Shown here piece by piece: positions 22,971 to 40,445 of a stretch of 64,000 nucleotides of DNA. Position numbers and translations under genes: made by a program. The stretch lies in assembly GCA_010093605.1 (NCBI GenBank), contig MU004195.1, positions 1,193,566 through 1,257,565 on the forward strand. Reading direction: 5' to 3'. Below the pieces are notes generated by a model. It was not told the origin of the DNA, searched no databases, and worked only from the letters and a program-made list of their open reading frames with translations. Position 1 is the first letter of the stretch. Each line of letters begins with the position of its first letter. The stretch comes from Lophium mytilinum. Its lineage: Eukaryota.

Positions 22971-25539
22971 ATGGCGATGACAACACGCGTGGGGAGGCTG
23001 CTGAGCCGTCGCACAACTCTGGTAAGCCCCAAACAACTCCAATTGCACCCTCGGCACCGGCTAACAACCACAGTTTCGACCAAGCATACCTTTCCGACCG
23101 GCCGCCGCATATATACGGCCATGGACCGCTATCCGACAGCTCTCTAAGACTACATATGGCTTAGATAGCCCCGACGTCTTTCCCTCCATGAAAGACGGCC
23201 CCGGTGCCGACTTCCTCTCAACCTTCCAAACCACGACCACTATTCCTCAAACTCTCACCGAGAAGATCGTTCAAAAATATGCGGTCGATATCGCGCCTGG
23301 GAAGACCCTCAGATCCGGAGATTATGTCTCCCTCAAGCCACACCGATGTATGACTCATGACAATACCTGGCCGGTGGCTTTGAAATTCATGTCTATTGGA
23401 GCTTCCAAAATCGACAACCCAGACCAGATCGTCATGACTCTAGACCACGATGTTCAGAACAAGAGCGAGAAGAACCTCACAAAATATCGGCAGATTGAAG
23501 AGTTTGCCAGAAAGCAGGACGTCCGCTTTTACCCTGCTGGCAGAGGCATTGGTCATCAAATAATGGTAGAGGAGGGCTACGCTTGGCCCGGGACCCTCGC
23601 CGTAGCTTCTGACAGCCACACAAACATGTACGGAGGCATTGGATGTCTGGGCACGCCAGTGGTGCGGACCGACGCAGCGAGTATCTGGGCAACGGGCCGG
23701 ACCTGGTGGCAGATCCCACCTGTGGCCAAAGTGAACTTCACAGGAACTCTACCTGAAGGAGTCACAGGGAAGGATGTCATTGTTGCGCTATGCGGCCTGT
23801 TCAACAACGATCAGGTTCTCAACCATGCCATCGAGTTTACTGGAAGTCAAGAAACGCTGCGCAGTCTCCCCGTTGACCACCGGCTAGCTATCGCGAACAT
23901 GACCACCGAGTGGGGCGCTCTTACTGGTCTCTTCCCAATCGATTCTGTACTTCATGGGTGGCTGCGAGCAAAGGCCACAGAAGCTGCCATGTATGAGTCC
24001 GAGTCACAACTTATCGACACTAGTGCGAGCAAGCAGTTCCAGCACTCGGAAATCGATAAGCTTTTCAAAGCTACCGGAATCGCAGGTCAACAAACTGGTC
24101 CCATCTTTACCCCAGCTCTCAGCGCGGACAAAGGTGCAACTTATGCTAAAGAGCTCTTCCTTGATCTCTCAAGTCTTTCGCCCTACGTGGCAGGTCCGAA
24201 CTCTGTCAAGGTTGCCACACCTCTCAAGGACCTTCAGGCGCAGGATATCACTGTTAACAAAGCTTACCTCGTTTCTTGCACCAACTCCCGTGCTTCAGAT
24301 ATCGCATCTGCTGCCAAAGTATTCAAAGACGCTGCAGCAGCAAATGACGGCAAGATTCCGAGAGTCCCTTCTCACGTGAATTTCTACATTGCCGCAGCAT
24401 CGCTTCAGGAACAACGTGCCGCTGAGGAACAAGGAGATTGGCAAGTGCTTCTTGAAGCTGGAGCACAGCCTCTCCCCTCTGGATGCGGACCTTGCATTGG
24501 TCTCGGCACTGGGCTTCTGGAGCCAGGCGAAGTCGGTATCAGCGCTAGCAATCGCAATTTCAAAGGCCGTATGGGCTCCACAGATGCCAAAGCATATCTA
24601 GCTAGCCCTGAAGTCGTAGCGGCCAGCGCACTCTCGGGAAAGATATCAGGACCCGGATGGTACGAACCACCCGCTGATTGGGCCGGTGTGCAGCTCGGAG
24701 AGGGCGACGGCATCAAGGATGAAGACCGCATGATGACCATCGAGGATTTGCTCGAGAAAGTCATCAGGCAAGCAGACGAAATGATCGAGTCTGTCGAGCC
24801 AGCCGAGACCTCAGCCGCTTCCAACATACCACCAACTCCCGAGTCGGAAAGCCTCACGACCATCCTCCCTGGTTTCCCTGAAAAGATCGGCGGCGAAATC
24901 GTTTTCGTGGATGCTGATAACATCAACACCGACGCCATCTACCCGGGCAAATACACGTACCAAGACGACGTTCCCCGCGACGTCATGGCCGAAGTGTGCA
25001 TGGAGAACTACGACACCACCTTCCGCTCCACCGCCAAGGCCGGCGATATTCTCGTCGCTGGTTTCAACTTCGGGTGTGGAAGTAGCAGAGAGCAGGCCGC
25101 AACCGCAATTCTCGCCAAGGGAATCCCACTCGTGGTTGCTGGCAGCTTCGGGAACATATTCAGCCGCAACAGCATCAACAACGCGCTTATGGGCGTTGAG
25201 GTGCCAAAGCTCACGAACCGTCTCCGTGAGGTGTTCTCGGAGAAAGAGGTTTCGTCAAACCAGCAGGACATCACAGAGCCAGAGAAGAACAGCGACTCGC
25301 TGGACTCGCCGAAACCGGGCCCGGTCGCACAGCCTGCGCAAGCTAAGCAACTGACCCGCCGGACCGGGTGGACGCTGGAGTGGGATGTCAAGCGGAGTAG
25401 GGTCAATGTCCAAGAAGGCCCTGGAGGTGAGTCGTGGAGTGTCAAGGTTGGCGAGCTACCGCCGAATGTGCAAGAGATTATTGCGCTTGGTGGGTTGGAG
25501 AACTGGGTCAAGAACAAGATTGGGATGGGTCAGGCCTAG
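22971..25539 (+). CDS. LYS4: Homoaconitase, mitochondrial (intron 23022-23073)
   Basis: Arg-rich presequence, [22 protein letters not shown], Fe-S ligands SCTNSR and [15 protein letters not shown], swivel domain [11 protein letters not shown]. Confidence 0.97.
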
Positions 25540-27192
25540 ATGAGACTAGTGGAGTGTAAAACAAAAAGGTGAGGTCGGCTGGGGTCAAAAGGAGGATGCA
25601 TGTAGTTAGATTTTGTGCTTGTACATAGTATACCCACGTTTCATTTCAGCATCTCGTTTCTTGCGTTTGTCAATGGTACCAACTCAAGCTTATCATTTCT
25701 GCTACCTCCAGGGGCTCCTCAGGCTCCTTCCTACCCCCGCCAAACTCAACAGCCACAGGCCCGATCTGAGGGGCGCGAGAAGGAGTCATCACCTCAGCAT
25801 CCAGAATCTCCTAATGGGTTAACAACAGAGTGTTTTGGATCGTAATAAGGAACATCAGGTCAAGGAAGAATGAATGTTTAGTATTGTCTTACAATCGACA
25901 ACAATAGGTGTGTAGTTAGGAGTTGATGAAGCTAAGTACAGAAGCACGAAATGCGATTTCCTTTTTACAAATATCGGCTCACAGTATTACATAAACGGCG
26001 GTTCAGTCGAGGCTTGATATTGGAAGAAATGGAACGACTTTAGAGAAGGCTAATGATAATCGCTGAAGGGGCGAACAGATGGTCCGTCTTGTATGGGTAT
26101 CGATGTTATGGCTTCCACCTCTAGATACCCTGTCATACGACAGTTTTGTGGTCAATGCCTCCCCCACTAACTGTCACGAACAGTAAATGCCTGGGCCGTC
26201 GTTCTTTTGAGCTGTTTATAGAAATTTTCCAACTTAGTGTAGCTTTATAGTCCTAGCCTTGAAAAACGATAAGGGCCTACTTGTAAGTCTGTTTTATTAC
26301 GGTCATTGTTTTGCGACCTCGGGAAAATTGGATGTTGTAATAAAGTTCGTCCACGTGTCGAGGGCTGGTGCCAAGGCAAACATCGGACTTCTCCGCGCCC
26401 CCCACAACCTCCCAGCCTCCTTTCCATCCCGTGTCACCTCAGAATGCACACCTACACGCTACCCGCGAAAACTTGGACGTACCCCAATAGTATTTGAAGA
26501 ATGGTCAGTATTACCCGCTGAGCAGTACTGATTTATTGACACACTTTAGAACAGCCCCGACGTCGGTCGTACAACAACTGCAACCAGGTAATACTTAAGC
26601 AAGCTGCGTATACGTTGGTCGCATGGAAAGCAAGCCTAGCAGGCAATCGGCAATAGTTCTGTTAGACAGCATGCCGATTAGTAGGTGGCCCCATCGGTGG
26701 GACTCTGGATCTGTGTTGCGATTGGCTCTATCATAACTTTCAAGATAGCATTTCCTTTTCCGCTTCAATGATAAGTGCAAGACACTAGAAAGAAGATCTG
26801 AAAACCCCTCCATTTCATTCGTAACATGAGTCTATGGCTACGATAACTTCCGAATTGTGATTCGATACGATGATACCTAACCCAAATCAAGCCTATCATT
26901 TCAGAGGGCCTTCCCTTCAACACACTCCCCGTTTACGGCTTGACGAAGCCGGCAGGGGTGGTCTCACTCATCCATCTGTTTTTCTGTTGGTATGTACCAA
27001 ATCCTGGCTGTATCGACATCATCGACGAGCTCGACATGCTCGTTGCAGCGCTACGCGCTTTCCCGCACTGCCACGGATCGACAAATAAAACACTCTCAGG
27101 CGGGGTGTGGTGACTGTGCAGACTCTTCAGTCCATCGTTCGAGTAATGTATGTATCTCCATATGCGGCATCTATACCAGAGCCTCTGGCGTA

Positions 27193-27263
27193 CGGAGTCG
27201 ATCCATCTAAATGGCCACTCCCACAAGCACCCCTCTCCGCAGAGGGCAACCGCTTCACAGCAA
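27193..27263 (+). repeat. 71-bp inverted copy of coding sequence from the gene at 17003-19268
   Basis: Reverse complement of 17827-17897 with 4 mismatches; encodes GVDPSKWPLP(P/Q)APLSAEGNRFTA. Confidence 0.95.
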
Positions 27264-27873
27264 TATACAGTTCAGATCGGTCTCCAAAACCATTGCGAAT
27301 CGAGATGTCATTTCCACACGTCTGATTCAGCGCTTCCGGAAATGGCATCCTCCTTTTCAAACCCCCGCAACCTCCTGGGGCGCCCGAAGCCGTATCAACC
27401 CCCCAAAACGATCGCACGAGAATATACGATTTGAAGCGTCTGGAAAACAGTTGCAAACAGACGCCGAAGGAACTACGCGGAGGGGCCCCTAAGTGGGCAT
27501 GCTTTCTGTGCTTAAAGGTATATTTCATGCATTGATCAGTAACTACGTTGTGGGCTCGCTTGCGCCCTCTATGACCGACGTTATTCACTGGAACTCCCAG
27601 CTTCCGGCTTTAAGCGCGGTGCCTCAATCGAAATCCGTGATTCACCATTTTGCTGGACCGAGCACGTCTGACCTGCTGGCTTTCACACCCGCGGCTTTCC
27701 GTTCCCGCACAAAGTCTCGACCTCACAACTCACTACTCCCAGCTCCTCGCGCCTACACAACACACCACACCTTCAACCACTTCACTACCCTGCAACCTCA
27801 TCACCCACCACCTTGCTCCGACCTGTGTGTGCCTCCATCGATAGAGCTCCCCTGACTCGTCTCCTTAGCAACA

Positions 27874-30756
27874 ATGGCCGGTGTTCAGCGTCGCCAGCGC
27901 GCTGGCTTCGTTGGCGCTGCCATTGATGTCGGCCCGTCCATCCTCGCGGCCGTCGGTGGTGCGATCGGTGGTGGTACTGCCTTGACATTCCTATCGCCAT
28001 TTGGAAAGGACACGTCAGATGAGCCGACATTCGATCCATCGCTACGTATCCAGCAGCAAAAAGCGTCAGATACTCCTCTTTCTGAGAAAATCTTACGCGA
28101 TGACGCCATCTTTACGGTCACTTCGTTCACCGCTCCCTCAAATGCTTCCTCCTCCGCATCGATATCCGCGAATCCATCCCTGTCAACCTCCTCCGATACG
28201 ATACCATCCCCTCCGACCTCTCAAAACTCTTCGTCCCCTCCACTGCGCTCTGGAGTAGCGTCGACGATCTCCCTCAATGATGTCGCAGGCTTTCTTGGAG
28301 GGGCCAATGTCAACAGCGAGACTGCAACGGCTCTCGGCCTTGTACTGCTACACCGTTATGGACCTTCCCTCCTGACTCGCATACCAGGTTTCAAGAGCAC
28401 GAAGATGAAGGGGCTCATCAATGTAGCGGCCTCATTCATACCACAATTTGCCACAGCTAATCCCCAGTTCTATCTCCTGGACAGATACCTGAACCTTGCC
28501 GAAGAAGGATACAAATACGCCTCTGGATGGGAAGATGCAGTCGTTGTGGACCTTCGCGCACAGCTGCAACTAGCGAAGGATGAGTCGATAGGTCTGAGAA
28601 AACTGTTGGACGATGCAAATCTCGATCACGGACTCATCCTTGCCCGCAAAATTGATGATTACCTCCTAGATGTCGAGAAACTCGAGCAAAATCACAAGCT
28701 AGAAAAAGACGACCTGACGACGAGGTTGAGGAACGAGATTGCGAGCCGGCTGGAATCGCAACAGAAAGCTGCGGCCCTGTATCAACAGGTTCAAAGAGAG
28801 AAAGACGAAGCGTTGAGTGAGATCACCAGTTTGAAGCGTGGCGCCCAGTCTCAGAATGACGAGATAGTCTCTCTCAGAAAAGAGAATGCTACTCTTGCCC
28901 ACAAGAACGATTCGCTCCGCCTTTGCCTTCAGACTGAAAAGGAAGGTCGGGAGGCCGATCTTACCAATCATCGCGCTCAACTAGTCTCTAAAGACTCAAA
29001 GTACGAAAATGCTTCGCTTCAATTCCAGTCACAACTCGAAGCTTCCCAAATGGAGATCTGTGCCCTTAAGTGTGAAGCGGAGAAACTTCGCTCTGCGAAC
29101 GCAGCTCTGGAGTGTAAGGTCAACGCTTCCACGACTCAGATTGAACAATTGGAAGCGGATCGCAAGAAAGAGAAGACCATGAGCTCGCTGGAAGTTGAAA
29201 AACTCCAGGCTAAACTTGAAACCACCCAGCAGAAGCTGACAGATGAGATTGCGCGTTCGACTAAAAGCCGCCAGACTTTAGAAGAGGAGCGCACGGCTCG
29301 GAAGCAGGAAGCAGAGGCCAAGGATAAGGACGACGAGGTTTCTAGGCAGCTTCTCGACTCTAAGGACTCCGAACTTGCCGAAGCCAAGAACGAGCAGGAT
29401 ACCCTTCGAACCAAGTTGGAGAAAGCCTCCGCAGAGCACGAGAAAGACCAAACCTGCTTTACAGCTAAGACTAAAAGTCTCATCTCAGATGCTGAAAGAC
29501 TCCTCGAAGACAATCAACGTCTCAGCAACGACTTACGCTCCTCTTTCGAAAAGCACGAAATCTCTCTGGGGACCGTAGTCAAGCAGCATGAAGATGTGTT
29601 GGCGCAAATACAGCAACGCCATAAGACTGAAGTGGCTGACCTCTCTTCGAAGATTCGAGATACCCAGAAAGAGGCTGAGGCCCTGAAGACTGAAGTCGAT
29701 GAGTCGAAGGCCGAAATAACTAAGGTCAGGTTAGAGAACAAAGATCTCGAAGGCGAGTACAAGAAGCTGAAGGCAGAATACGGCAAGCTCCAGGGAGATT
29801 ATGCTGGTGCCCTCAAAGAAAACGGGCCAAAGTCTCATGGCAAGGCCGCTCTGGAAGCACAGAGCTTCAGCCCAGGCCATTTCAATATGCCGGATCTTAG
29901 TCCTGTCGTATTCCACCCGAGCAGGCAGCTGCAAGAGGCCCAAGACCAGGCTAGGCAGCACCAAAACTTGGAAACCCACCGGCAAAGCGTGGATGCGCTG
30001 CTACTCAAGTTCACGAAGTTGTTCAAAGAGATTCATCAGCTAAAAGCCTTTCAGAGCAAGAAACAACAGGCCAATCAAATTGACAAGCGTCGAAACCTAG
30101 TATCTTTTACCCCCGAGGAGTCATGGCAGCTGGGACAACGGTTGGACGATGAGACCAAGCTACTAAAGGCCGTCTTAAGCAACATATTCGCTCCCATCAT
30201 TGGGCTAAAAACCGCTAGCTACTTTCGAGATGTGATTGAAGGGTTCAGCCATTTCTCAAAGGCAGCGGCCGAGGACCTAGCGTACAGCCATGTAGAATAT
30301 AAAGAAACAAGGGACAAGCGGAACGTATTGACCGGTCCCCAATGGCATGAAATTCTCGATACGCTCAAGAAAAGGAAAGAAGAGTTCTTGAGAGACCAGT
30401 CTATCCCGAAGGAGGCCTTTAGTCAACTGCAACTGGTACCTGTTACGAATTCACGCACGAAGAAGCCAGGAGAGGTCACCAAGCCGGAGGTGACCGAGCC
30501 GGACTTTACGAATCTTCCCTCAAGTCAAGAGTTAAGTCAGTACGTGTCCACAGACAGACCTACCCTTTTTACAGACATTCTGGGTCACCTTGGCGTGCCG
30601 GCCAAAACGATTGCGGCGAAGGAGGTCTCCAAGCGGCTGGAGGAAGTTGCACATAAGAAGCGAGAGCGTAAGACTGGAAATTTAATCTTCACGCTCAAGG
30701 CTGCTGCGGGTGTCGACGTCAAGGAAACATCCGACAAGACCGCCAAAATTTACTAA
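27874..30756 (+). CDS. Orphan protein A (960 aa): hydrophobic N domain, long coiled coil, helical C domain
   Basis: Long intronless ORF, ACAATGG start context, E/K/L/Q-rich heptad middle; homologous to the ORFs at 32446 and 38447. Confidence 0.85.
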   Translation: MAGVQRRQRAGFVGAAIDVGPSILAAVGGAIGGGTALTFLSPFGKDTSDEPTFDPSLRIQQQKASDTPLSEKILRDDAIFTVTSFTAPSNASSSASISANPSLSTSSDTIPSPPTSQNSSSPPLRSGVASTISLNDVAGFLGGANVNSETATALGLVLLHRYGPSLLTRIPGFKSTKMKGLINVAASFIPQFATANPQFYLLDRYLNLAEEGYKYASGWEDAVVVDLRAQLQLAKDESIGLRKLLDDANLDHGLILARKIDDYLLDVEKLEQNHKLEKDDLTTRLRNEIASRLESQQKAAALYQQVQREKDEALSEITSLKRGAQSQNDEIVSLRKENATLAHKNDSLRLCLQTEKEGREADLTNHRAQLVSKDSKYENASLQFQSQLEASQMEICALKCEAEKLRSANAALECKVNASTTQIEQLEADRKKEKTMSSLEVEKLQAKLETTQQKLTDEIARSTKSRQTLEEERTARKQEAEAKDKDDEVSRQLLDSKDSELAEAKNEQDTLRTKLEKASAEHEKDQTCFTAKTKSLISDAERLLEDNQRLSNDLRSSFEKHEISLGTVVKQHEDVLAQIQQRHKTEVADLSSKIRDTQKEAEALKTEVDESKAEITKVRLENKDLEGEYKKLKAEYGKLQGDYAGALKENGPKSHGKAALEAQSFSPGHFNMPDLSPVVFHPSRQLQEAQDQARQHQNLETHRQSVDALLLKFTKLFKEIHQLKAFQSKKQQANQIDKRRNLVSFTPEESWQLGQRLDDETKLLKAVLSNIFAPIIGLKTASYFRDVIEGFSHFSKAAAEDLAYSHVEYKETRDKRNVLTGPQWHEILDTLKKRKEEFLRDQSIPKEAFSQLQLVPVTNSRTKKPGEVTKPEVTEPDFTNLPSSQELSQYVSTDRPTLFTDILGHLGVPAKTIAAKEVSKRLEEVAHKKRERKTGNLIFTLKAAAGVDVKETSDKTAKIY

Positions 30757-31169
30757 AAAAAGAAACCAGCACACACCTGCCCTCGTCCCAGTTTCTTTAT
30801 GGTGCAAGTCATCATATGCAGCCTAACAGCTGTATGTGTTTGACAAAGCAACATAAAGGGATTGGTGGCGAGGGTATGGGAGGCCACCTGACCTAACAGT
30901 TGGGGGCCGCGTGCTGGTTTCACCAAAAATCATCCGGTCTTGTTGGTGGAAAAGGGGTTGTATGAAGTACCGGTATTGGTAGAACTCTCTGTGTTTAGCA
31001 CGGGGTTGGTTACTTTTGCGATGAATCATCTTTCGGTATGGACGGGTGTTGATAGGAATAATGAAGCTAAAATCAAGTCAAAAATCTCATATGTGCTGAT
31101 TTGCACTGCATATGTGTTTCGAACTGTCTAAGCAAACAGATCTGTCTCTGCCTGGCTAAATCCTGCTCA

Positions 31170-32145
31170 CTCGACGCCACTGTAGGGGGTCGCCTGGTCC
31201 AAGAGCAACCAGATAATCAAGAGGTAGTATAATCTGCACTGCTTAAAACTTGACATCATTTTGGATTTTTGAAGTCTTGTCGAGGTACCTCATACAGTGG
31301 TAAACCAGGGGTAAGCGTGGTGGACATGTATTTTGGCTATGCTCGTGCGAGTAAAACGGCACTGTGAGGAGGGGACTGGGTGGGAAGAAGATAGTTGAGT
31401 AAATGGTAGTCCGGTTCCTGCAGCTTCGACTTCTGCATTAGTTCACGGAACTAGAAACTTAGTACACAGATGTTGCACTACTGTAGCTAGGATCTTGCAA
31501 GCGGGATAATACTGTAAGGAGAGGACTAGAGGGTAGAAAGAGAGTTGGGTAAAGGGAAGTCTAATTCCTATAGCTTCGATTTCTACATAGATTAGAGAGC
31601 TAGAAATCTAATACACGAATATGGCACTGCTATAGACAGGCTCTTGCTGGCGGGATAATACTGTAAGGAGTGGACTAGGTGGGAAGGAGACAGTAAAGCA
31701 GAAGGTTGTCTAATTTCTACCGCTTAAATACCGCTTTATTTTCTGTGTTATACTTAGAGACCTAGAAATACAGCCCACATAAATTTTACTAATTTAGCTA
31801 AGCTCTTGCAAGCGGGATAACACTGTAAGGAGTAGCCTGGGTAGGAAAGATATAGTTTAGTAAAAGTTAGTCTAATTTATAAGCTTTAACTTTTATATTA
31901 TATTTAGACAGCTAAAATTCTAGTATATAGATATTGCACTCCTTAGGTGCTATTCTTGCGCGCACGATGCCACGATCAGGAGTAGCCTGGGTAGAAAGGA
32001 GGTACTTAAGCAAAAGGTAGTCTGATGCTGCAGCGTTGTCTTCTATATCGTGTTTGGAGGGCTAAAATCCTAATATATAGGTATCCCACTACTCAGGCTT
32101 TACTTTTGCCCGCTCGGTAGCACTGTTAGGAGTAGCCTGGATATC
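31170..32145 (-). repeat. Left tandem array, ~7 units of ~150-180 bp, reverse orientation
   Basis: ACTGT.AGGAG cores near 31179, 31361, 31511, 31660, 31822, 31972 and 32122, preceded by TCTTGC..GC and followed by ..AAAGGTAGTCT. Confidence 0.88.
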
Positions 32146-32445
32146 CGGTAAATAGTAGCAAGAAATAGTGCTTACCCAGGTATGATCTTCGTTCGTAAAC
32201 TTATCTGCCGCCACTGACCTTATCGATCTAGCATTCACTACTTCACACAAGCACAACACGCCGGACTTTCAGTTTCACCGATTTCCGTTTCCGCACGAAG
32301 ACTTAACCTCGCAGCTCCCAACTCCCGGCCCCTCCATCTCACACACACACACCTACAACCACATCAAGAAACCCACCACTTCACTTCCAGATCTGCGCAC
32401 AAACTACCACCGCACCATCTCCGCTGTCTCTGTCTGTTAGTCACA

Positions 32446-34956
32446 ATGGCGAACGCCAACGGTCCTGGCCGACAAGGCAATGGACTTCCCGCCGCGGCAT
32501 TTCATGTCCCGCCTCGTCTTTCCGCAGCGGCTGGAGACACTGCTGAGCCTGCAGCAGCGTACCCTTTTGGAGAAGAGGCATCAAAAACACTCGAAACTGC
32601 CGAATACCAGAACGGGGTAAAAGCTTCCTATGAACCTCGGCATCAGGCCCACAAGGACACAGCGATAACTAACGAGGACGCGCTGATGACCTATCACAAT
32701 GTCGAGGTTGATCGCATCGGGCAAGAGCTCCTCGCGTGTATGCGTGTAGAGATTGAAATGGTCGAGCTTTGCTTTGAAGCTGATTTGCCAAACCCAGCGG
32801 AATTCAACCAGGAGCGTACAGCGGCAAGGGAGGCTTCCAAAGAAGCGGAAAATGAACTAGCTAAAGCTATAGCTTCTGCACGGGAAGTTTGCGTACGGAT
32901 GGAATCAAGCAAGGTTAAACACAAGGGGTTGGAGCTCCTCAAGAATATTATTGCGGAGCTCACAACAAAAAGACACGATCTGGACCACCAATTGGACAAC
33001 AAAGGGCGAGGGCTTCTCTGGATCTTTTGTGCAGAGATGTCAGTAACCATGGATCTCTACAAACTAAAAGTGGACGACACAGAGATGGACGATCCAGTGG
33101 AGCTTATAGTGGCGAGGGAGGCTTATAAAGAAGCGGAAACTCAACTAGTCATGGCCATAGCTTCCGCACGAGCGTCTTACTCACGGATGGAAACAAGCAA
33201 GGTTGATCAAAACGGGCTAGGGCTCCTCATGGATGCTTTGGCGAAGCTCTCTGCAAAAAGGTGGCAACGGGACCGCCAAATTGAGGTCAAAGATGATCTC
33301 AAAATGGCGCGCAACGTCGTCGAGTATGATCGTATTAAGGGATCTATGGTCGAGTCATTGCGTGTGGAGATCATATCAGCCGAGAATGATCTTGAAGTAG
33401 CGATGAACGCCCCAGTGGAACTCGACCAGGAGCTCACAGCGACGAGGGAGGCTTCCAAAGAAGCGGGAAAGCAACTAGCCAAAGCCATAGATTCTTCGTC
33501 GGAGCTTTGGGAACGGCTGGAAGTAAGCAGCGCTGATCGTGTGGACTTAGATGTCGTCGGGAATGCTTATCTCGAGCTCTTAAACAAACGGAGTGATCTT
33601 AATCGGGGCGAATGGGCGCTCAAAGTGATGAGGAACGCACACAAAGAAGCGCAAAACCGACCAGCCAACGTCATGGCTTCCTCACGGAAGGCTTCTTTAC
33701 AGATGAGTTCCGACGACGAAGTCATCGTCAGCAATCTGAGGAATCAAGTGAAGGAATTGGAAAGCAAAACGGCATCCATCCCTACACTTCAAGCCCGCAT
33801 TGAAGAGCTGGAGAGACAGAACGAGGCCCTGCAAAAGACCAATCAGTATGCTGGTGAAGCCTTAAACGCTGCGAATGAGGAGCACAAGGCTGCCCTGGAG
33901 GCTGCGACGAGCTGGACTGGAGAATGTCAGGGCCAATTGGAGAAGCTTAATAAGGAATATGGGAACCTCCTGAGAGAAAAGGCGCTCACACCGGCCCCGA
34001 ACGGCCCGCATGGACCAACGACACTTCTGCACAGGCAATACGATGGACTTGTCACTCAGTACAAGTCACTGTTCAACGACTACAAAGAGGCACAGGCAAC
34101 GATCCGCACGCTCAGCGCGAAACTGAATTTCCAGTCGGCCACTCAGGATTCAGGTCCCTGGATCAAGCACTTAAGCCTAGAGATCAAGTCAGTCAAGCAC
34201 CCAGATCCGGCGAATGAGGAAGCCTCCACATATCCAGATCCGGCGATGAAAGAGGCCTTCACGAAATTTTCTGAGGTACTCAAGCAAATTGAGGACCTCC
34301 ACCGTACGAATCGTGCGAAGCCAGGCGAGGACAACCAAGATAGAAGGCGATGCCTGGCCACCTACACGCCTAAGCAGGCCTGGAGCATACGCGACAGCCT
34401 CACAGACGTATGCGTTCTGATCAATAATCGCATTTACGTAGATCTTGCTTCCAGACAAGATAGACTCGCCTACAATATGTCAACAGTGATGGGATGTTTG
34501 TGCATGTTAGCAGTCGATGCATTCGAGGACATCGCATACGGCCACGAAGAATTGAGATTAGCCAACGCCACTATGATCAACAATGGTACGTTGACCGTGG
34601 AGAACTGGTTGGCGGCCCGAAAGATCTTGGAACAAGAGAGGGAGAAATATGAAGCCAACCCTGCCTACATCCCGGACCACCTAAGTGGAATATGCGACAA
34701 GGAGGGGAGACTAAGGAGATTTCTGAATAACCTCCCCAGCGACAAGGAGCTGCTGTCTCACTTTGAAGTCCCACTGGTACCGCTGAGCGTCGTCGAACTA
34801 TGCCAAACTCTCGACATCCAGACCGGATCGACCATCTGTGGAGAACTGGTCGCGCGTTTGAAGACATTCCCGCAACTTGAGCAAGGAAAGCAGAGGAAGA
34901 AAGCGGTGTTCTGGCGAAAGAGTGATGCTGGAAGCGAGGAGGTTCCTGGAACCTAA
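32446..34956 (+). CDS. Orphan protein B (836 aa): ~3.5 internal ~100-aa helical repeats, coiled coil, C domain shared with A
   Basis: Long intronless ORF, ACAATGG context; repeated AREA.KEA..QL..AI.S motif. Confidence 0.85.
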   Translation: MANANGPGRQGNGLPAAAFHVPPRLSAAAGDTAEPAAAYPFGEEASKTLETAEYQNGVKASYEPRHQAHKDTAITNEDALMTYHNVEVDRIGQELLACMRVEIEMVELCFEADLPNPAEFNQERTAAREASKEAENELAKAIASAREVCVRMESSKVKHKGLELLKNIIAELTTKRHDLDHQLDNKGRGLLWIFCAEMSVTMDLYKLKVDDTEMDDPVELIVAREAYKEAETQLVMAIASARASYSRMETSKVDQNGLGLLMDALAKLSAKRWQRDRQIEVKDDLKMARNVVEYDRIKGSMVESLRVEIISAENDLEVAMNAPVELDQELTATREASKEAGKQLAKAIDSSSELWERLEVSSADRVDLDVVGNAYLELLNKRSDLNRGEWALKVMRNAHKEAQNRPANVMASSRKASLQMSSDDEVIVSNLRNQVKELESKTASIPTLQARIEELERQNEALQKTNQYAGEALNAANEEHKAALEAATSWTGECQGQLEKLNKEYGNLLREKALTPAPNGPHGPTTLLHRQYDGLVTQYKSLFNDYKEAQATIRTLSAKLNFQSATQDSGPWIKHLSLEIKSVKHPDPANEEASTYPDPAMKEAFTKFSEVLKQIEDLHRTNRAKPGEDNQDRRRCLATYTPKQAWSIRDSLTDVCVLINNRIYVDLASRQDRLAYNMSTVMGCLCMLAVDAFEDIAYGHEELRLANATMINNGTLTVENWLAARKILEQEREKYEANPAYIPDHLSGICDKEGRLRRFLNNLPSDKELLSHFEVPLVPLSVVELCQTLDIQTGSTICGELVARLKTFPQLEQGKQRKKAVFWRKSDAGSEEVPGT

Positions 34957-34989
34957 GTACGTTACCATACGAAGGGTATAGCGATGGAA

Positions 34990-36760
34990 GCCAGTGTACC
35001 TTTTGACGGGCGGGAGGCCTGCTAGAGGGGCTACTCCTGACAGTGGTATCAAGCGTGCAAGGATAAGGAATTAGTAGTGCTATATCCATGTGCGTAGCTA
35101 GCTATAATGAAAACCCAGTGTCAGGTTCTAGACATCCCAAACTAGGCTACCTCGTGACGGGCTGAAGACTTCTTAGGGGGGCTACTCCTAACAGCGGTAT
35201 CACGGGGCCAGAAGTAGGAGCTCTTCAATGGCCTATCCATGCATCCAGTTTACCTAACCCAGAACTATAATAGAAACCCAATATCACGTTCTAGAGAGCC
35301 TAACCTAGGCTACCTGTTAACGAGCTATAGACCGGCTTAGGGGGCTACTCCTAACAGTGGTATTACGGGACTAAAAGTGGGAGCTATGCACTGGCATATT
35401 CATGCATCGACATATCTAACCCAGAATGTCGATCGAAATCCAATATCAAGTTCCAGACAACCGAATCCAAGCTTCCTTTTGACGGGCTAAAGACCAGCTG
35501 GGGGGGCTGCTCCCAACAGCAGTATCACGGGACCAAAAGTAGTAGTTATGCAATGGTATATCCGTACATTCAATCATCCAACCTAGAAATACAACAGAAA
35601 CACACTATCAGATTTTAAACAACTGAAACTAGACTACTTTTTAGTAGCCCGGAGACCTGCAAGCGGGGCACCTCCTGACAGTGGTTTTATAGGATCAAAA
35701 GCAGGCGCTAGGCAATCGTATATCCGTGCATCCACTTACCTATCCTAGAGCTGCAATAGAAACACAATCTTAGAGCGCAGACAGCTGAAACTAGACCGCC
35801 CTTTGATAGACCGGAGACCTGCTAGCGGAGCACCTCCTAACAATGGTATTAAGCGTGCAAGAGTAAGAGACTAGGAGTGCGATATCTATATACCTAGCGG
35901 TATGCCTTAGAGTCATAATAGAAACCTAACACGTAGTTCTAGAAACCCGAAACTAGGCTATCTTTCAACAGACTAGAATTCTACCAGCAGGGCTAGCCAG
36001 GCCACTCCCTACGATGCTATCAAACATGCAAAACACGAAACTTTTAAGTCAAGGCCAACACCATACAAATCGAACTACCTTTGCACCTGCTGGCGACCGG
36101 CTAGCCAGGCCGCCCCTTACAGTGCCAACACCTGTGCAATACTACAGATCACAATGCTACGGTCTACACAACGAAGATAAGACTACCTCTTAGCCGGATA
36201 GCGATTTGCTACCTAGGCCGCCCCTCACAGTGCTATCACCGATGCAAACTACAGATTACAATGCTACGGCCCACACAACGAAGATAAGACTACCTCTTAG
36301 CTAGATAGCGACCTACTTACCAGGCCACCCCTTACACTGCTATAAAGCGGCAAAACCGTAAGGGGCTTATCTCAGGGACAACGCTGTAGAGATTAGACTA
36401 CCTTTTAGTCGGTTAGCAACCTGCTAGCTGAGCTACTCCGTACAGTGCTATCAAATATTCAAGAGGAAGAAAGCGATGTAAAGACTGATGCAGTTAAAAC
36501 GAGACATCCTTTTACCTAGGTAACTATCGACTGGCTAGGCTACTCCTGATAGTGGTATAAAGCGTGCAAGGGTAAGCACTTAGCAGTACTATATCCGTGT
36601 GCACATCAGCTACAATAGGAACCCAATGTCAGGTTCTGGACAGTCGGTATTAGGCTACCTTTTGGCGGACTGCAGATGTACTAGCGGAGCTACTCCTAAC
36701 AGTGGTATCACGCGTGCAAGAGTATGAAACTAGCAGTGCTATATCCGTGTGCCCAACTAT
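34990..36760 (+). repeat. Right tandem array, ~13 units (~162-bp and ~108-bp classes), forward orientation
   Basis: GCTACTCCT.ACAGTG cores near 35031, 35182, 35345, 35507, 35669, 35831, 36002, 36110, 36218, 36325, 36433, 36540 and 36690. Confidence 0.9.
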
Positions 36761-37031
36761 ATGACCCAGTATTGTATAAAGAAAGGCCACAATGTTACAA
36801 GGTACAAATCACGCTGCTATTGCACACGGTGTCAAGAAAAGCAAGTTCAATCTACAATTACATCTATTTTCAGTCCCTAATACTTCCAGCAATACTAGCA
36901 CGCCAGCTCCCAAATAACTCCTATATAGTCCTTTGTAATAACACACAGCTATTAGGCTGTGTGTCGTAACTAGCACCATTTAGGAGTTAACTGAGAGCTG
37001 GCGTGCTACTATATACTCCCACGACGCGAAC

Positions 37032-38447
37032 TCACTTCCCCTCCGCGTCCGCTAGTCTCCTCCTAAGTCCCCGAATCGTCGCCTCCAGGTCCGAAATCTT
37101 CTCCTCCGCGACCTCGTTCACCTCCTCCAGTTCCTTAATCTTCCCCAGAGCGCCCCTCCACGCCAGCTCTTTCTCCTCCAACCGCCTCTTGAGGTCCTTC
37201 AACGCCTCCTCCATCGCCGCGTCCGCAGCCGGCCCAGCCCCTCGCAGCGACCTTTTCAACGCTTCTACCTCTTCTTCCAGAACTTCCACCTCCTCCCCCG
37301 CCCTCCGCAGCGCCGCGTCCACCCCCCTCTTCGCCACCAAAACCTCCTCCTTCTCCCTCATCTCCTCCTTCCAACACTTCTCCAACACAGCCCCATGCCT
37401 CCTCACCCCCGCGCACTCCCTCAGCGTCTCAACAAGTTCCGCTCCAACAGCAACGTACTTCATCTTCCACTCTTTCGCGCTCTTCTCCTGCAACGCCGCC
37501 TGCACCTCTGCGTTGCCAATCCGCGACCGCGCCGCGTCCGCTTCCGCGATGTGTCGCGTATCCTGCACGCGGAGGTCCGCCAGCTCCGCCTCCGTCCGCC
37601 GCAGCGTGGCGGCTTGGGCGGCGACTTGGGCGGTGAGCGTGGCGATTTGGGCCTCGTAGTGGGCTTTCTGGTCCGCGAGCTGGTCTGAGTACTGCTTTTT
37701 CTGGCTCGTGGCGTCGTGTGCAAGACGCAGCGTACCCGCTCTCACACCGCGCCGATACTGCCGGAACGCCTTCTTCTCTCTTGCTAGGGCTGCAGCCGCG
37801 ACGAATGGCAGCAGTTTCGTATCTTCTGACCGCGGGGAGTCCCATCCGGTGACGAGCTTGTAGAAGCCTTCGAGTAGGGTGCATAAGAGGAGTGCGGGGA
37901 CGTAGTACTGCTTGTTGGCGACGAAGGGGACGAGTTGTTCCGTGATGGCGCCGAGTCTGGTGAGCCATTTGCGGGCGGTCGCGCTTCGGAGGCCGGGGAA
38001 GTGGGCGAGGAGAGAGGGACCGTAGCGGGGGATGGCGATGAGGAGGAGGGTGTAGAGCAAGGCTGCGAGGTGGCCTGAGAGGTGGGCGGCTGGGATGGCG
38101 GTGATGGGGAGAGCGTATTCTTGGGTGAGATGGGCCGTAGGGATCGGTGCGGTGGGTGATGGAGATGACGAAGACGGCGGGTCGACTGGAGTAGAGAGGG
38201 ATGGCAGCGAGGATGAATAGGCTGGAAGCTCGACGGTTTCGATCGATGAAGGAATCGGGGTAGTAGAGGGGAAGTCTTCAACGGGGATGGATGCCGGGCT
38301 GGGGTAGTTCGAGGGATCGAAGTCGTTCTTTGGGCGAGTGCCGATGAGGACAGCAGCACCAGCAGCTACGGCGCCGACGAGGGCTGGGACGGCGTTTAGG
38401 ACATCGTCAAGGATGCCGTTTCGGTGGTAGGCGTTGATGTTGTTCAT
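37032..38447 (-). CDS. Orphan protein C (471 aa): N domain shared with A plus a coiled coil
   Basis: Intronless ORF; RYGPSLL..PG..S and EG.YK..GW motifs shared with A; coiled-coil C-terminal half. Confidence 0.82.
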   Translation of the reverse strand: MNNINAYHRNGILDDVLNAVPALVGAVAAGAAVLIGTRPKNDFDPSNYPSPASIPVEDFPSTTPIPSSIETVELPAYSSSLPSLSTPVDPPSSSSPSPTAPIPTAHLTQEYALPITAIPAAHLSGHLAALLYTLLLIAIPRYGPSLLAHFPGLRSATARKWLTRLGAITEQLVPFVANKQYYVPALLLCTLLEGFYKLVTGWDSPRSEDTKLLPFVAAAALAREKKAFRQYRRGVRAGTLRLAHDATSQKKQYSDQLADQKAHYEAQIATLTAQVAAQAATLRRTEAELADLRVQDTRHIAEADAARSRIGNAEVQAALQEKSAKEWKMKYVAVGAELVETLRECAGVRRHGAVLEKCWKEEMREKEEVLVAKRGVDAALRRAGEEVEVLEEEVEALKRSLRGAGPAADAAMEEALKDLKRRLEEKELAWRGALGKIKELEEVNEVAEEKISDLEATIRGLRRRLADAEGK

Positions 38448-38469
38448 GGCGATCTAGAGAAGAACGAAA

Positions 38470-38815
38470 AACTGCCGTTGAGTCGTGTGTGTCTTGGTGA
38501 TTGACTTCGGAGTGACGGCTGTCGAGTTGCGGTCGTGAGTGATCTGACGATTCGCTTTGGAGAGACGGCTGTTGAGTCGAGTGTGCTCTGATTGTTGGCT
38601 TCGCAGAGACGGCTGTCGAGTTGTAGTCGTGAGTGATCTGACGATTCGCTTTGGAGAGACGGCTATTGAGTGGTGTGTGCTTTGATGGTTGACTTTTGAG
38701 AGACGGCTGTAGAGTCGGGTGTGCTCTGATTGTTGGCTTCGCAGAGACGGCTGTCGAGTTGCAGTCGTGAGTGATCTGACGGTTCGCTTTGGAGAGACGG
38801 CTGATGAGCTGTGGG
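38470..38815. repeat. Compound minisatellite of 50-bp and 44-bp units upstream of orphan C
   Basis: GACGGCT cores at 38514, 38564, 38608, 38658, 38702, 38746 and 38796 (spacings 50,44,50,44,44,50). Confidence 0.93.
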
Positions 38816-39371
38816 TGTTTTGGTAGTTGTCGGGTGGAGCGTGTTGTGTTGCGCACTTATAGAAAAGGTGTGTGTGATCTCAGGAGTGAAGTGAGCCGCC
38901 TAACGTCAAGAGTGAAGTTGCGGTCCCCGGGTCTCGTAGACGGAGATCGTTGTAAATACTTCGGAAGGGTAAATTGCGCTGTCGCCTGTAAGTGTCCGGG
39001 TGTCTGCGATGTGTGTCACCTGGTCAAAGCCTTGAAAAGAAGAAAAATGCGCTACATTCACCAGCCCGTACGCAGCAAATCGATTTCGACAAAGAATATG
39101 AGTTAGACACTGCAGCACGATGAAAAAAGCTACACAGGTCGCGAAGTTTTGCGTTGGAGGTTTCTTGCTACAAATAAAAGTACAGTGCGAAAAGTGCTAC
39201 CTTTCTTTGTGTCTCAGTCAATGCCATTGTCTTCTGGACAAAGGGCCAACTAGCAAAGAACGCCGAAGAAGGGAAAACACTTGCTTGGCCGAACACTCTG
39301 CCCGACAGTCAATACTGCCGAACTCGAGCTGGAAGCAGCATGGAAGACTCACATACAACCACAGTCTCTTG

Positions 39372-40445
39372 CTACGCATGCTCTCCTCCAGCCCCCTGAT
39401 CCGGCGGCTCCTGAGTCTGCCGCGCTCTCCTCACCCTCTCTTCCGCAGCCTTCGCCAATATCTCCCTCCGACTAAGTCCCCCAGCCGGCACCTCCCCACC
39501 CACACTACTCACAACCGTACCGCCCCCTCCACCCCCGAGCACAAACTCCCCCCCAGTCCACCCCCCATGATCCATCACCTCCTCCTCCTGCGGCTGATAA
39601 TACTCCTGATTCCCCACACTCCTCCCCCCACTCCTCCAATCATCCCTCTCCACCTCCCTCTCAATCTTCCCACACAAATCCCAAAAATCCCGATCATGCG
39701 GCCCAAACACATTATGCGCCAGCTCATGACACAGCGTCTTCCGTATCGTCTTGTAATCCCTGTACCCATCATACGCATCCGTCCGCAACCGCAGCTCAAT
39801 CACCTCGCCCTGGTTGCGGTTCAGCCCCAGCGTGCGCGACTCGCGCGTCGTGTGCATCGCCGGGTCCATCTCGGTGAGCAGCGGCACCGCGAACTTGTGC
39901 GCGCGCATCGCGGCGCGGATGCCCGCGTCGTCGCGCAGGCGCTCGAGGAAGGCGAGGGAGCGCTCCGGGCGGGGGAGGTAGGGGAGCGGGCGGAGGGTGT
40001 GGAAGGTGTAGGTGGCGTCGTCTTGGATGCGCTGGTTGGAGCGGCCGGTACGGGAGGGGAGTGCAGATTTGATGGGGGAGGGGCGGCGCGGGGCGGAGGC
40101 GGCGGCGATGGAGGCGTTGAGGGAGGAGAGTTCGGCGGCGGTGGAGCCCATGAGGACGATTTTCTTGGTGAGGAGGGTGGTGAGGGGGGTGGAGGGGGCT
40201 TTGAAGGGGGGCTTGAGGAGCCCGACTTTCGGGGTTATGAGGAATTTCTGGTTGGAGGGAGGGATGGATAGGTTTGCAGCGATATATTCCGAGAGGTCTG
40301 CGAGAGTCGCATGGCTCGGGAAGGTAAGTTGTATCGGCTTGCCATGGTGCACTATCGTAAGGTGGGTGTCGTCGCCACTGGGTGGTGTTGAGGAGGTTGG
40401 TTTAAGCTCGTTTTGAGCCTGAGGATCATCTGTCGTAGCCATCAT
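39372..40445 (-). CDS. Ubiquitin-like domain + WLM (Wss1-like) zinc metallopeptidase
   Basis: N-terminal Ubl-like segment (IPPSNQKF, KIVLMGS), LGLNRNQGEVIELRLRT, HELAHNVFGPHD zinc motif. Confidence 0.92.
   Translation of the reverse strand: MMATTDDPQAQNELKPTSSTPPSGDDTHLTIVHHGKPIQLTFPSHATLADLSEYIAANLSIPPSNQKFLITPKVGLLKPPFKAPSTPLTTLLTKKIVLMGSTAAELSSLNASIAAASAPRRPSPIKSALPSRTGRSNQRIQDDATYTFHTLRPLPYLPRPERSLAFLERLRDDAGIRAAMRAHKFAVPLLTEMDPAMHTTRESRTLGLNRNQGEVIELRLRTDAYDGYRDYKTIRKTLCHELAHNVFGPHDRDFWDLCGKIEREVERDDWRSGGRSVGNQEYYQPQEEEVMDHGGWTGGEFVLGGGGGGTVVSSVGGEVPAGGLSRREILAKAAEERVRRARQTQEPPDQGAGGEHA

What the first reader, a model, noticed from the sequence alone, without database searches (positions are those of the whole stretch)
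25600..39100. Accessory island with a modular three-gene orphan family: candidate undescribed system
Seen: between conserved LYS4 and WLM genes lie three long intronless coiled-coil ORFs with no family I recognise. A = N domain + coil + C domain; B = tandem helical repeats + coil + C domain; C = N domain + coil. They come with inverted repeat arrays, a minisatellite leader, duplicated upstream regions and a captured host exon fragment. The paralogues are highly diverged yet all frames are intact. Inference: a full-length protein plus two partners that each keep one domain recalls effector/inhibitor or sensor/decoy logic, as in fungal allorecognition or meiotic-drive loci. No homology to het, Spok or NLR genes is visible, so the function is open.
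Basis: partly seen in the sequence, partly recalled or inferred. Interest (0 to 1): 0.8.

Follow-up and report, generated by a model that had tools for sequence, protein, structure and literature searches.

The report
Split coiled-coil gene family in a fungus
Three neighbouring fungal genes encode long rod-shaped proteins of a rare, unnamed family, and two of them look like the separated front and back halves of one ancestral gene; nothing seen points to a self-recognition or selfish-gene system.

Summary
A (27874-30756+, 960 aa), B (32446-34956+, 836 aa) and C (37032-38447-, 471 aa) are intact ORFs between homoaconitase (LYS4) and a WLM gene. A and B share a C-terminal domain (BLASTP 4e-11) and A and C share an N-terminal domain (7e-8). 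No Pfam family reaches its cut-off.

The family is rare but not private to this genome. A profile search of 1.84 billion representative proteins gave 8 hits, of which I accept 6. A has a full-length counterpart in Mytilinidion resinicola (P0004). B has a counterpart of unknown origin (P0007, 975 aa) that still carries the N domain. Trees give two old lineages, (A,P0004) and (B,P0007).

C's N domain groups with P0007. C matches P0007 residues 5-394. B matches residues 1-44 and 452-967. So B and C are nearly exact complementary halves of a B-type ancestor.

B gained three tandem helical repeats (dN/dS 0.81-0.91) and lost the hydrophobic N-terminus. It sits between inverted, RIP-like 150-162-nt repeat arrays. 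A and B share a 90-nt upstream element. RNA contigs cover C and, thinly, A.

My reading is a lineage-restricted family of anchored coiled-coil scaffold or tether proteins with a duplication-and-loss split. The effector/decoy or drive idea is unsupported but not excluded.

The parts
23188..25539 (+). Left flank: homoaconitase (LYS4)
   Evidence: TIGR00139 at 1236.7 bits. Aconitase Pfam domains. RNA contig depth about 1309.
27193..27263 (+). 71-nt copy of a coding fragment of the ORF at 17006-18286(-), inverted
   Evidence: blastn 94.4% over 71 nt. The translation matches P0006.
27696..27784 (+). Upstream element shared with B, about 90-178 nt before A's ATG
   Evidence: Local alignment z 16.3, 0 of 300 shuffles. 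The 19-nt core occurs only here and at 32282 in the window.
27874..30756 (+). Gene A (960 aa). N domain aa 1-235: hydrophobic Gly/Ala-rich start, S/T/P-rich linker, conserved core. Rod aa about 236-660. C domain aa about 690-960.
   Evidence: Counterpart P0004: 51% identity in N, 41% in C, 31% in the rod.
31327..32143 (.). Tandem array of about 150-nt units (5-6 copies) upstream of B, with RIP-like composition
   Evidence: TA/AT 1.75, (CA+TG)/(AC+GT) 0.83, GC 0.416.
32282..32366 (+). Upstream element shared with A, about 80-164 nt before B's ATG
32446..34956 (+). Gene B (836 aa). Degenerate first 44 aa of the N domain. Three helical repeats (aa about 116-420, DNA 32793-33710). Short coil aa 421-560. 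C domain aa about 590-836.
   Evidence: The identical 836-aa protein stands in the representative library.
34997..36760 (.). Arrays of 162-, 107- and 150-nt units between B and C. They share a 40-60-nt core with the upstream array in inverted orientation.
   Evidence: inverted pairs I1-I3, I5-I7. TA/AT 1.61, (CA+TG)/(AC+GT) 0.94.
36892..37012 (.). Hairpin with 41-nt arms, 83% complementary, just 3' of C's stop
   Evidence: I4. A 68-nt look-alike lies on another contig of the DNA run (table 8, record 5).
37032..38447 (-). Gene C (471 aa). N domain aa 1-235 of the B-type. Ala/Glu/Arg-rich rod aa 236-471. GC3 0.75.
   Evidence: RNA contigs cover 36873-37300 and 37333-39508 without an intron-like joint inside the ORF.
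38471..38829 (.). 44/94-nt minisatellite in the transcribed leader region of C
   Evidence: The RNA contig spans it with one 94-nt unit fewer (38531>38626).
39372..40445 (-). Right flank: WLM-domain gene
   Evidence: PF08325 at 3.3e-50. RNA contig depth about 790-850.

Best explanation
A, B and C belong to a small, taxonomically restricted fungal family of long alpha-helical rod proteins.

The ancestral architecture has four parts: a short hydrophobic Gly/Ala-rich N-terminus, an S/T/P-rich linker with a conserved N core, a coiled-coil rod of about 400-860 residues, and a helical C-terminal domain of about 270 residues.

Shown by comparison: two old paralogue lineages exist, A-type and B-type. 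In this genome A keeps the full architecture.

Inferred from complementarity: the B-type gene exists as two complementary genes. C keeps the anchor, the N core and the first part of the rod. B keeps only a degenerate first 44 residues, the distal rod and the C domain, and it has added three fast-evolving helical repeats. The most likely route is a local duplication followed by complementary deletions, which amounts to fission. This happened in a repeat-rich interval whose arrays later suffered RIP-like mutation.

Inferred from architecture only: the N-terminus anchors the protein to a membrane, the rod dimerises and projects the C domain tens of nanometres away, and the C domain binds a partner. 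That makes the proteins scaffolds or tethers. In this reading C is an anchored stub and B a soluble rod with the binding domain.
For: Family and lineages. The C-domain profile gave 8 hits at E<=1e-3 among 1.84e9 representatives. I accept 6: P0004, B itself, P0007, P0008, P0009 and P0011. A versus P0004 is collinear over N (51%), rod (31%) and C domain (41%). The C-domain tree gives (A,P0004) 100/99 and (B,P0007) 100/99. The N-domain tree gives the split (A,P0004)|(C,P0007) at 95/94.

Complementarity. B aligns with P0007 residues 1-44 (59%) and 452-967 (36%, 4e-87). C aligns with P0007 residues 5-394 (3e-20), better than with A (7e-8). C and P0007 align without gaps from the PGL motif to the GW motif, where A and P0004 carry gaps.

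Anchor. The best 19-residue hydropathy at the N-terminus is 1.65 in A, 2.07 in C, 1.65 in P0004 and 1.48 in P0007. B has no segment of 1.0 or more there.

Rods. Heptad periodicity is significant.

C domain. The AF2 core is a helical bundle with pLDDT 80-90, followed by a small 3-helix unit.

Selection. All three frames are intact. B's repeat spacings of 288 and 330 nt are multiples of 3. Invariant family positions are kept in B.

Expression. A run with canonical spliced joints in flanking genes, so RNA, holds contigs over C at depth about 57-66 and over A at 0.5-3.6.

Shared regulation. A 90-nt element sits at about the same distance before the ATG of A and of B and occurs nowhere else in the window.
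Against: No localisation, binding or membrane insertion is shown. The hydrophobic N-terminus is Gly-rich and carries an Asp or Asn, so it is a marginal transmembrane candidate.

The N-domain tree has only 4 taxa and C has the longest branch (1.2), so long-branch attraction to P0007 (0.8) is possible. C is only 25% identical to P0007, less than P0004 is to P0007 (31%).

C's GC3 (0.75) differs from B's (0.57) and matches the neighbouring WLM gene. Any duplication is therefore old, or C is a separate lineage.

The layout of the arrays does not fit a simple inverted duplication. They lie upstream of B and between B and C, but not upstream of C.

B's repeats have dN/dS of 0.81-0.91, which is compatible with weak constraint.

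The origin of P0007 is unknown, so orthology as opposed to paralogy with B is inferred from the tree only.
Confidence: 0.5

Rival explanations
1. C is a third, old paralogue lineage (an anchor-plus-short-rod type) and not a fission product. B simply lost its N domain on its own, and the complementarity is a coincidence.
For: C is very diverged: 25% identity to P0007 and a branch length of 1.2. Its GC3 of 0.75 matches the WLM neighbour, not B. Members lacking the N domain occur elsewhere in the family (P0008 with 606 aa, P0009 with 309 aa), so domain loss recurs. No shared upstream element links C to B.
Against: No C-like protein of 259-825 aa was found (none of 8000 scored candidates at E<=0.1). 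That search is word-limited. C's match ends at P0007 residue 394 and B's main match starts at 452, which is a tight fit for a coincidence. C shares gap-free spacing with P0007 where the A-type carries gaps.
Confidence: 0.22
2. The three genes form an interacting system in the first reader's sense. Full-length A is the active protein. Soluble B competes for the C-domain partner and anchored C competes for the anchor site. They act as inhibitor or decoy within an allorecognition, spore-killing or similar conflict locus.
For: The locus is clustered and repeat-rich, and the window's copies have longer branches than their counterparts (A 0.5-0.7 against 0.27-0.32, B 0.67 against 0.46). B's repeats have dN/dS near 1 with the frame kept open. 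The family is very rare. Short 70-85-nt patches are shared with other loci.
Against: No HET, NACHT, HeLo, kinase or nuclease family appears at E<=1. A-type and B-type genes keep their architecture in other genomes. No polymorphism or presence/absence data could be obtained. Nothing marks any of the three as toxic.
Confidence: 0.07
3. B, and perhaps C, is a decaying remnant. The locus records a rearranged B-type gene on its way to loss, and only A is functional.
For: B's repeats have dN/dS of 0.81-0.91. B's anchor is degenerate. RIP-like arrays flank it.
Against: B has 836 codons with no stop or frameshift although the repeats have diverged to dS of about 0.6-0.8. By my estimate, neutral decay at that depth would be expected to introduce several stops. 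B's C domain keeps the family-invariant positions and long identical runs with P0007. B itself does not show RIP indices (TA/AT 0.59). C is covered by RNA contigs.
Confidence: 0.15

Closest known systems
Uncharacterized protein BDZ99DRAFT_497485 of Mytilinidion resinicola (P0004, 1436 aa)
   Same: It has the same three-part architecture as A and is collinear with it: N domain 51%, rod 31% and C domain 41% identity. It groups with A in both trees.
   Different: Its rod is about 480 residues longer. It has no described function, and its locus tag occurs in none of the searched papers. Its genomic neighbourhood could not be read.
Unnamed 975-aa protein P0007 from the representative library (source unknown)
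   Same: It is the B-type counterpart: 36% identity to B over 557 columns and 59% over the first 44 residues. Its N half matches C (3e-20).
   Different: It is a single full-length protein with anchor, N core, rod and C domain. In the window these parts are divided between C and B, and B has three extra helical repeats.
N-terminally anchored long coiled-coil proteins of the ER such as kinectin and p180 (recalled; analogy only)
   Same: A hydrophobic N-terminus is followed by a very long coiled-coil rod. The predicted role is scaffold or tether.
   Different: No sequence or fold relation was found. The S/T/P linker, the N core and the C domain are specific to this family. Membrane anchoring is not shown here.
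Fungal heterokaryon-incompatibility and spore-killer loci
   Same: The locus is clustered, diverged and repeat-associated, and it holds paralogues.
   Different: None of their defining domains is present at Pfam E<=1. The two gene types are conserved in other genomes.
Gene fission by duplication and complementary degeneration (a general evolutionary process; recalled)
   Same: Two adjacent genes cover nearly non-overlapping halves of a single-gene counterpart: P0007 residues 5-394 against 1-44 plus 452-967.
   Different: The halves are convergent, not collinear. Both keep the first 40 or so codons. The C-terminal half has acquired new repeats. The ancestral state at this locus was not observed.

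Membership tests
The unnamed A/B-type family (P0004, P0007, P0008, P0009, P0011) | C-terminal helical domain with conserved R-x-L, A-W, E-D-I/L-A-Y and L-P-S motifs | tested here: met
   A and B were used to build the profile. P0004 scored 2.7e-176, P0007 3.7e-47, P0008 4.2e-13, P0009 9.2e-13 and P0011 1.6e-6. Four columns are invariant in 7 of 7 rows. C lacks this domain.
The unnamed A/B-type family | N domain: hydrophobic Gly/Ala-rich start with a central Pro, an S/T/P-rich linker, and a core ending in G-W-E/D | tested here: met
   Present in A, C, P0004 and P0007. B keeps only the first 44 residues, without hydrophobicity.
HET / NACHT-NLR / HeLo allorecognition proteins | HET, NACHT or HeLo-type domain detectable by Pfam | tested here: not met
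   No such family appears among all Pfam matches at E<=1 for A, B and C. There were 3, 9 and 7 weak families respectively, all below their cut-offs and none of them a HET, NACHT or HeLo family.
Spok-type spore killers | Nuclease-like and kinase-like domains after a coiled coil (feature list recalled) | tested here: not met
   No kinase or nuclease family at Pfam E<=1. The C-domain model is an all-helical bundle.
Spectrin-repeat proteins | About 106-residue three-helix repeats matching PF00435 | tested here: inconclusive
   B's repeats are 96-110 residues long and all-helical but give no Pfam match at E<=1. The single-sequence model has mean pLDDT 51.3, too low for a fold search. Spectrin and nesprin rows for the C-domain model reach only Z 5.7-5.9, within the helical background.
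SMC proteins | ABC-type head domains and a hinge flanking the coiled coil | tested here: not met
   Only rod-to-rod hits: TIGR02168 at 22.9 and 20.1 bits against a cut-off of 567.
Golgin / vesicle-tether proteins | GRIP, GRAB or other named targeting domain, or a C-terminal tail anchor | tested here: not met
   No such Pfam family at E<=1. The hydrophobic segment is N-terminal, not C-terminal. The functional analogy remains possible.

The most novel reading that the evidence does not exclude
B and C are not just historical halves but a working split protein, or an antagonist pair, acting with A. Anchored C and soluble B either reassemble through their rods or compete with full-length A for the anchor site and for the C-domain partner. 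This would give a three-part regulatory or conflict module built from one undescribed family, with a shared A/B upstream element co-regulating two of the parts.
Probability: 0.1. Interest if true: 0.7.

Novelty: new variant of a known kind. Interest (0 to 1): 0.32.

Why it matters
The locus defines two protein domains that no family library, solved structure or searched paper describes. They occur in a very small set of fungal proteins.

It is also a clean natural example of one long modular gene represented, in a related genome, by two complementary genes beside a full-length paralogue. That makes it usable for asking what the anchor, rod and C domain each do.

It does not, on present evidence, open a new class of fungal conflict or recognition system.

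Tried and rejected
Whole genome of the window: not held. Further paralogues and synteny could therefore not be searched.

The sources and organisms of P0007-P0011 stay unknown.

Word-based protein searches. Whole A and A residues 1-240 each returned only P0004. C residues 1-240 returned nothing at E<=0.1.

ESM Atlas. The C domain gave no usable hit. The N domain's best score was 0.77, below the tool's chance level.

Metagenome scans. The first alignment was too diverged and was not run. The A+P0004 and B+P0007 alignments matched 388 and 380 pattern stretches, and none was confirmed.

Fold searches of the C-domain model. Foldseek against PDB gave 0 matches at E<=1e-3. VIA wide gave a best Z of 8.4 to a designed helical protein, with all other rows at or below 7.0, within the stated helical background.

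PDB sequence profiles: best E 0.83 and 0.1.

AF2 of B's repeats from a single sequence: mean pLDDT 51.3, so no fold search was made.

Complex prediction of A's C domain with B's C domain: no verdict (score 0.00, controls not run). This is not evidence either way.

RNA. No listed holder is on record as RNA. Run X3 proved to be RNA by its spliced joints, but it has no contig over 31338-34672 (B and its upstream array) or over 35340-36673. A part without cover is no evidence of silence.

A crude count of a/d positions was uninformative. I replaced it with the periodicity test.

Rfam gave only a sub-threshold miRNA-family hit on the hairpin (30.8 bits against 149). No tRNAs were found.

tblastn of all family members against the window at E<=5 found no extra remnants in the intergenic DNA.

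The long ORF at 46627-49011 is not related to A, B or C.

Papers. 'Mytilinidion resinicola' gave 13 papers; the 10 listed were seen as titles and abstract starts only, and none concerns this family. The locus tag gave 0 papers. 'gene fission' + 'coiled-coil' + 'Dothideomycetes' gave 0 papers.

Earlier findings of this scan: nothing by place, sequence or words.
Full report
WHAT IS THERE

The window is an ordinary gene-dense stretch of an ascomycete chromosome. It holds an amino-acid permease, a copper amine oxidase, a Zn2Cys6 factor, a short-chain dehydrogenase, a TIP49 (RuvB-like) gene, a SET-domain gene and glutamate synthase. Homoaconitase lies at 23188-25539 (TIGR00139, 1236.7 bits). A WLM-domain gene lies at 39372-40445 on the minus strand.

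Between these two genes lie three long uninterrupted ORFs:
- A: 27874-30756 (+), 960 aa
- B: 32446-34956 (+), 836 aa
- C: 37032-38447 (-), 471 aa

- A and B share only the C-terminal 350 or so residues (E 4e-11, 20% identity).
- A and C share only an N-terminal region (E 7e-8; tblastn extends it to C74-224).
- B and C share nothing detectable.

The middle parts of A and C and residues 421-560 of B have significant heptad periodicity (z 6.5, 3.9 and 2.9). B's residues 46-420 and the C domains do not. B's residues of about 116-420 are three in-frame repeats of 96-110 residues, 75-80% identical at the DNA level. They are predicted all-helical at low confidence.

ACCOMPANYING DNA FEATURES

- B is bracketed by tandem arrays. 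Units of about 150 nt lie at 31327-32143. Units of 162, 107 and 150 nt lie at 34997-36760. The two sides share a 40-60-nt core in inverted orientation.
- These arrays, unlike the genes, carry RIP-like dinucleotide indices: TA/AT of 1.6-1.75 and (CA+TG)/(AC+GT) of 0.83-0.94, against 0.54-0.71 and 1.04-1.36 for LYS4, A, B and C.
- A 44/94-nt minisatellite (38471-38829) ends 24 nt before C's ATG.
- A and B share a 90-nt upstream block, 78% identical. It begins 178 nt before A's ATG and 164 nt before B's (z 16.3, 0 of 300 shuffles). Its 19-nt core occurs nowhere else in the 64 kb (2 matches, 0.07 expected). C's upstream region is unrelated.
- The 'captured exon' is a 71-nt, 94% identical, inverted copy of part of the S/P-rich ORF at 17006-18286.

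RELATIVES

No Pfam family reaches its cut-off for A, B or C at E<=1, and NCBIfam gives only rod-to-SMC noise.

Word-based searches of 5.8 billion clusters found one relative of A, the uncharacterized 1436-aa protein BDZ99DRAFT_497485 of Mytilinidion resinicola (P0004). It is collinear with A over the N domain (51%), rod (31%) and C domain (41%).

An exhaustive HMMER search of 1.84 billion representatives with a C-domain profile gave 8 hits at E<=1e-3:
- P0004
- B itself, so the 836-aa model is on record
- P0007 (975 aa, 3.7e-47)
- P0008 (606 aa, rod plus C domain)
- P0009 (309 aa, C domain only)
- P0011 (86-aa fragment)
- two repeat proteins, P0010 and P0012, which lack the family motifs on inspection and which I set aside

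The family is therefore rare but not private to this genome. Members lacking the N domain also occur elsewhere, if those gene models are complete.

THE KEY RESULT

P0007 is a full-length protein with a hydrophobic start, S/P-rich linker, N core, rod and C domain.
- B matches it at residues 1-44 (59% identity) and 452-967 (36%, E 4e-87).
- C matches it at residues 5-394 (E 3e-20). That is stronger than C's match to A (7e-8) or to P0004 (2e-5).

The C-domain tree gives (A,P0004) and (B,P0007), each at 100/99. The four-taxon N-domain tree gives (A,P0004)|(C,P0007) at 95/94. C and P0007 also share gap-free spacing through the N core where the A-type carries gaps.

So there are two old lineages. 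In this genome the B-type is represented by two genes that cover almost exactly complementary parts of the single-gene form. B's first 44 residues have lost their hydrophobicity: it has no 19-residue window at or above 1.0, against 1.48-2.07 in A, C, P0004 and P0007. That is what one expects once the anchor's partner region is gone.

CAVEATS ON THE FISSION READING

- The tree has four taxa and C has the longest branch.
- C is only 25% identical to P0007.
- C's GC3 (0.75) equals that of its neighbour WLM and differs from B's (0.57). The event is therefore old, or C is a separate lineage.
- The arrays are not placed as a simple inverted duplication would leave them.

I put fission by duplication and complementary loss at roughly 0.55-0.6 and an independent old C lineage at about 0.2.

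ARE THE GENES ALIVE?

All three frames are open. B's repeats have diverged to dS of about 0.6-0.8 with dN/dS of 0.81-0.91, yet they contain no stop, and the spacings stay multiples of three. By my estimate, neutral decay at that depth should have produced several stops. So the frame is maintained while the residues are weakly constrained or diversifying. B's C domain keeps the four family-invariant columns and long identical runs with P0007.

One public run holds the locus with zero differences. It shows canonical spliced joints in flanking genes (23020>23073 GT..AG; 41150>41205 and 41635>41694 CT..AC), so it is RNA.
- Its contigs cover C at depth about 57-66, and 20 over C's 3' end. LYS4 has about 1309 and WLM about 790-850.
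- The cover over C's ORF is continuous apart from 37301-37332 and has no intron-like joint.
- The cover runs through the minisatellite with one 94-nt unit fewer.
- A is covered thinly, at depth 0.5-3.6.
- Contig depth is a poor measure of expression, and this is one sample.

STRUCTURE AND MECHANISM

The AF2 model of A's C domain (7-row alignment, mean pLDDT 65.8) has three parts. The core is three long helices at pLDDT 80-90 (model residues 75-169). A disordered linker follows, then a small three-helix unit (212-261) before a basic tail. Foldseek found nothing at E<=1e-3. The full VIA scan gave only generic helical bundles (best Z 8.4).

The mechanism is therefore inferred from architecture alone. 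A basic, then hydrophobic, Gly/Ala-rich N-terminus with a conserved central Pro is a plausible membrane anchor. The rod of about 425 residues would span roughly 60 nm as a coiled coil (0.15 nm per residue, established geometry). The C domain is the likely partner-binding end. This is how N-anchored coiled-coil scaffolds and tethers are built (recalled analogy: kinectin, p180). I found no homology to any of them.

No HET, NACHT, HeLo, kinase or nuclease domain appears. Both gene types keep their architecture in other genomes. The one-domain 'partners' derive from a second full-length gene and are not trimmed copies of A. The conflict-system reading is therefore unsupported.

It is not excluded. 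The window's copies sit on longer branches than their counterparts. The locus is repeat-rich. B's repeats evolve fast. No population data could be obtained. I give it about 0.07, and about 0.1 to the broader idea that B, C and A still work as an interacting module.

VERDICT

The locus holds an undescribed, narrowly distributed protein family and a neat probable gene split. It is of modest interest, and nothing positive supports a new kind of system.

Noticed in passing
window 46627-49011 (+): A further long ORF (794 codons from stop to stop) with very strong heptad periodicity (z 10.8). It gives only sub-threshold Pfam hits to intermediate-filament and DUF7310 coiled-coil models. It is unrelated to A, B or C.
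   Followed up: partly
window 17006-18286 (-): A Ser/Pro-rich ORF (427 codons, P0006) with no Pfam family. It is the source of the 71-nt fragment copied upstream of A.
   Followed up: partly
window 28790-28872: 83 nt inside A's rod-coding part have a look-alike with 4 differences at the end of other contigs in both DNA runs, and A's own contigs break there (table 8, records 3 and 10). A second locus in the genome shares this short patch. With the 71-nt patch at 27193, that makes two short near-identical fragments shared with distant loci.
   Followed up: no
window 31164-31257: A short multi-copy element. DNA contig depth in its bin is about 430-485 against about 157-167 nearby, several contigs have loose ends on both sides, and RNA depth in that bin is 129.
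   Followed up: no
window 36892-37012: An imperfect hairpin (41-nt arms, 83% complementary, 39-nt loop) lies directly 3' of C's stop. A 68-nt look-alike with 6 differences lies on another 50-kb contig. It may be a small dispersed inverted-repeat element.
   Followed up: no
window 38531-38626: The RNA contig over C's leader lacks exactly one 94-nt minisatellite unit relative to the window, and the ends are not intron-like. This is either an assembly collapse or a length variant.
   Followed up: no
window 39595: The high-depth RNA contig of the WLM gene leaves the window's sequence at 39595. Its loose end is not found anywhere in the window. It could be an unannotated splice to an exon outside the window, a chimeric contig or a variant.
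   Followed up: partly
window 37001-40000: A local GC-rich stretch (GC 0.57-0.63). C and WLM both have a GC3 of 0.75, against 0.56-0.60 for A, B and LYS4.
   Followed up: partly
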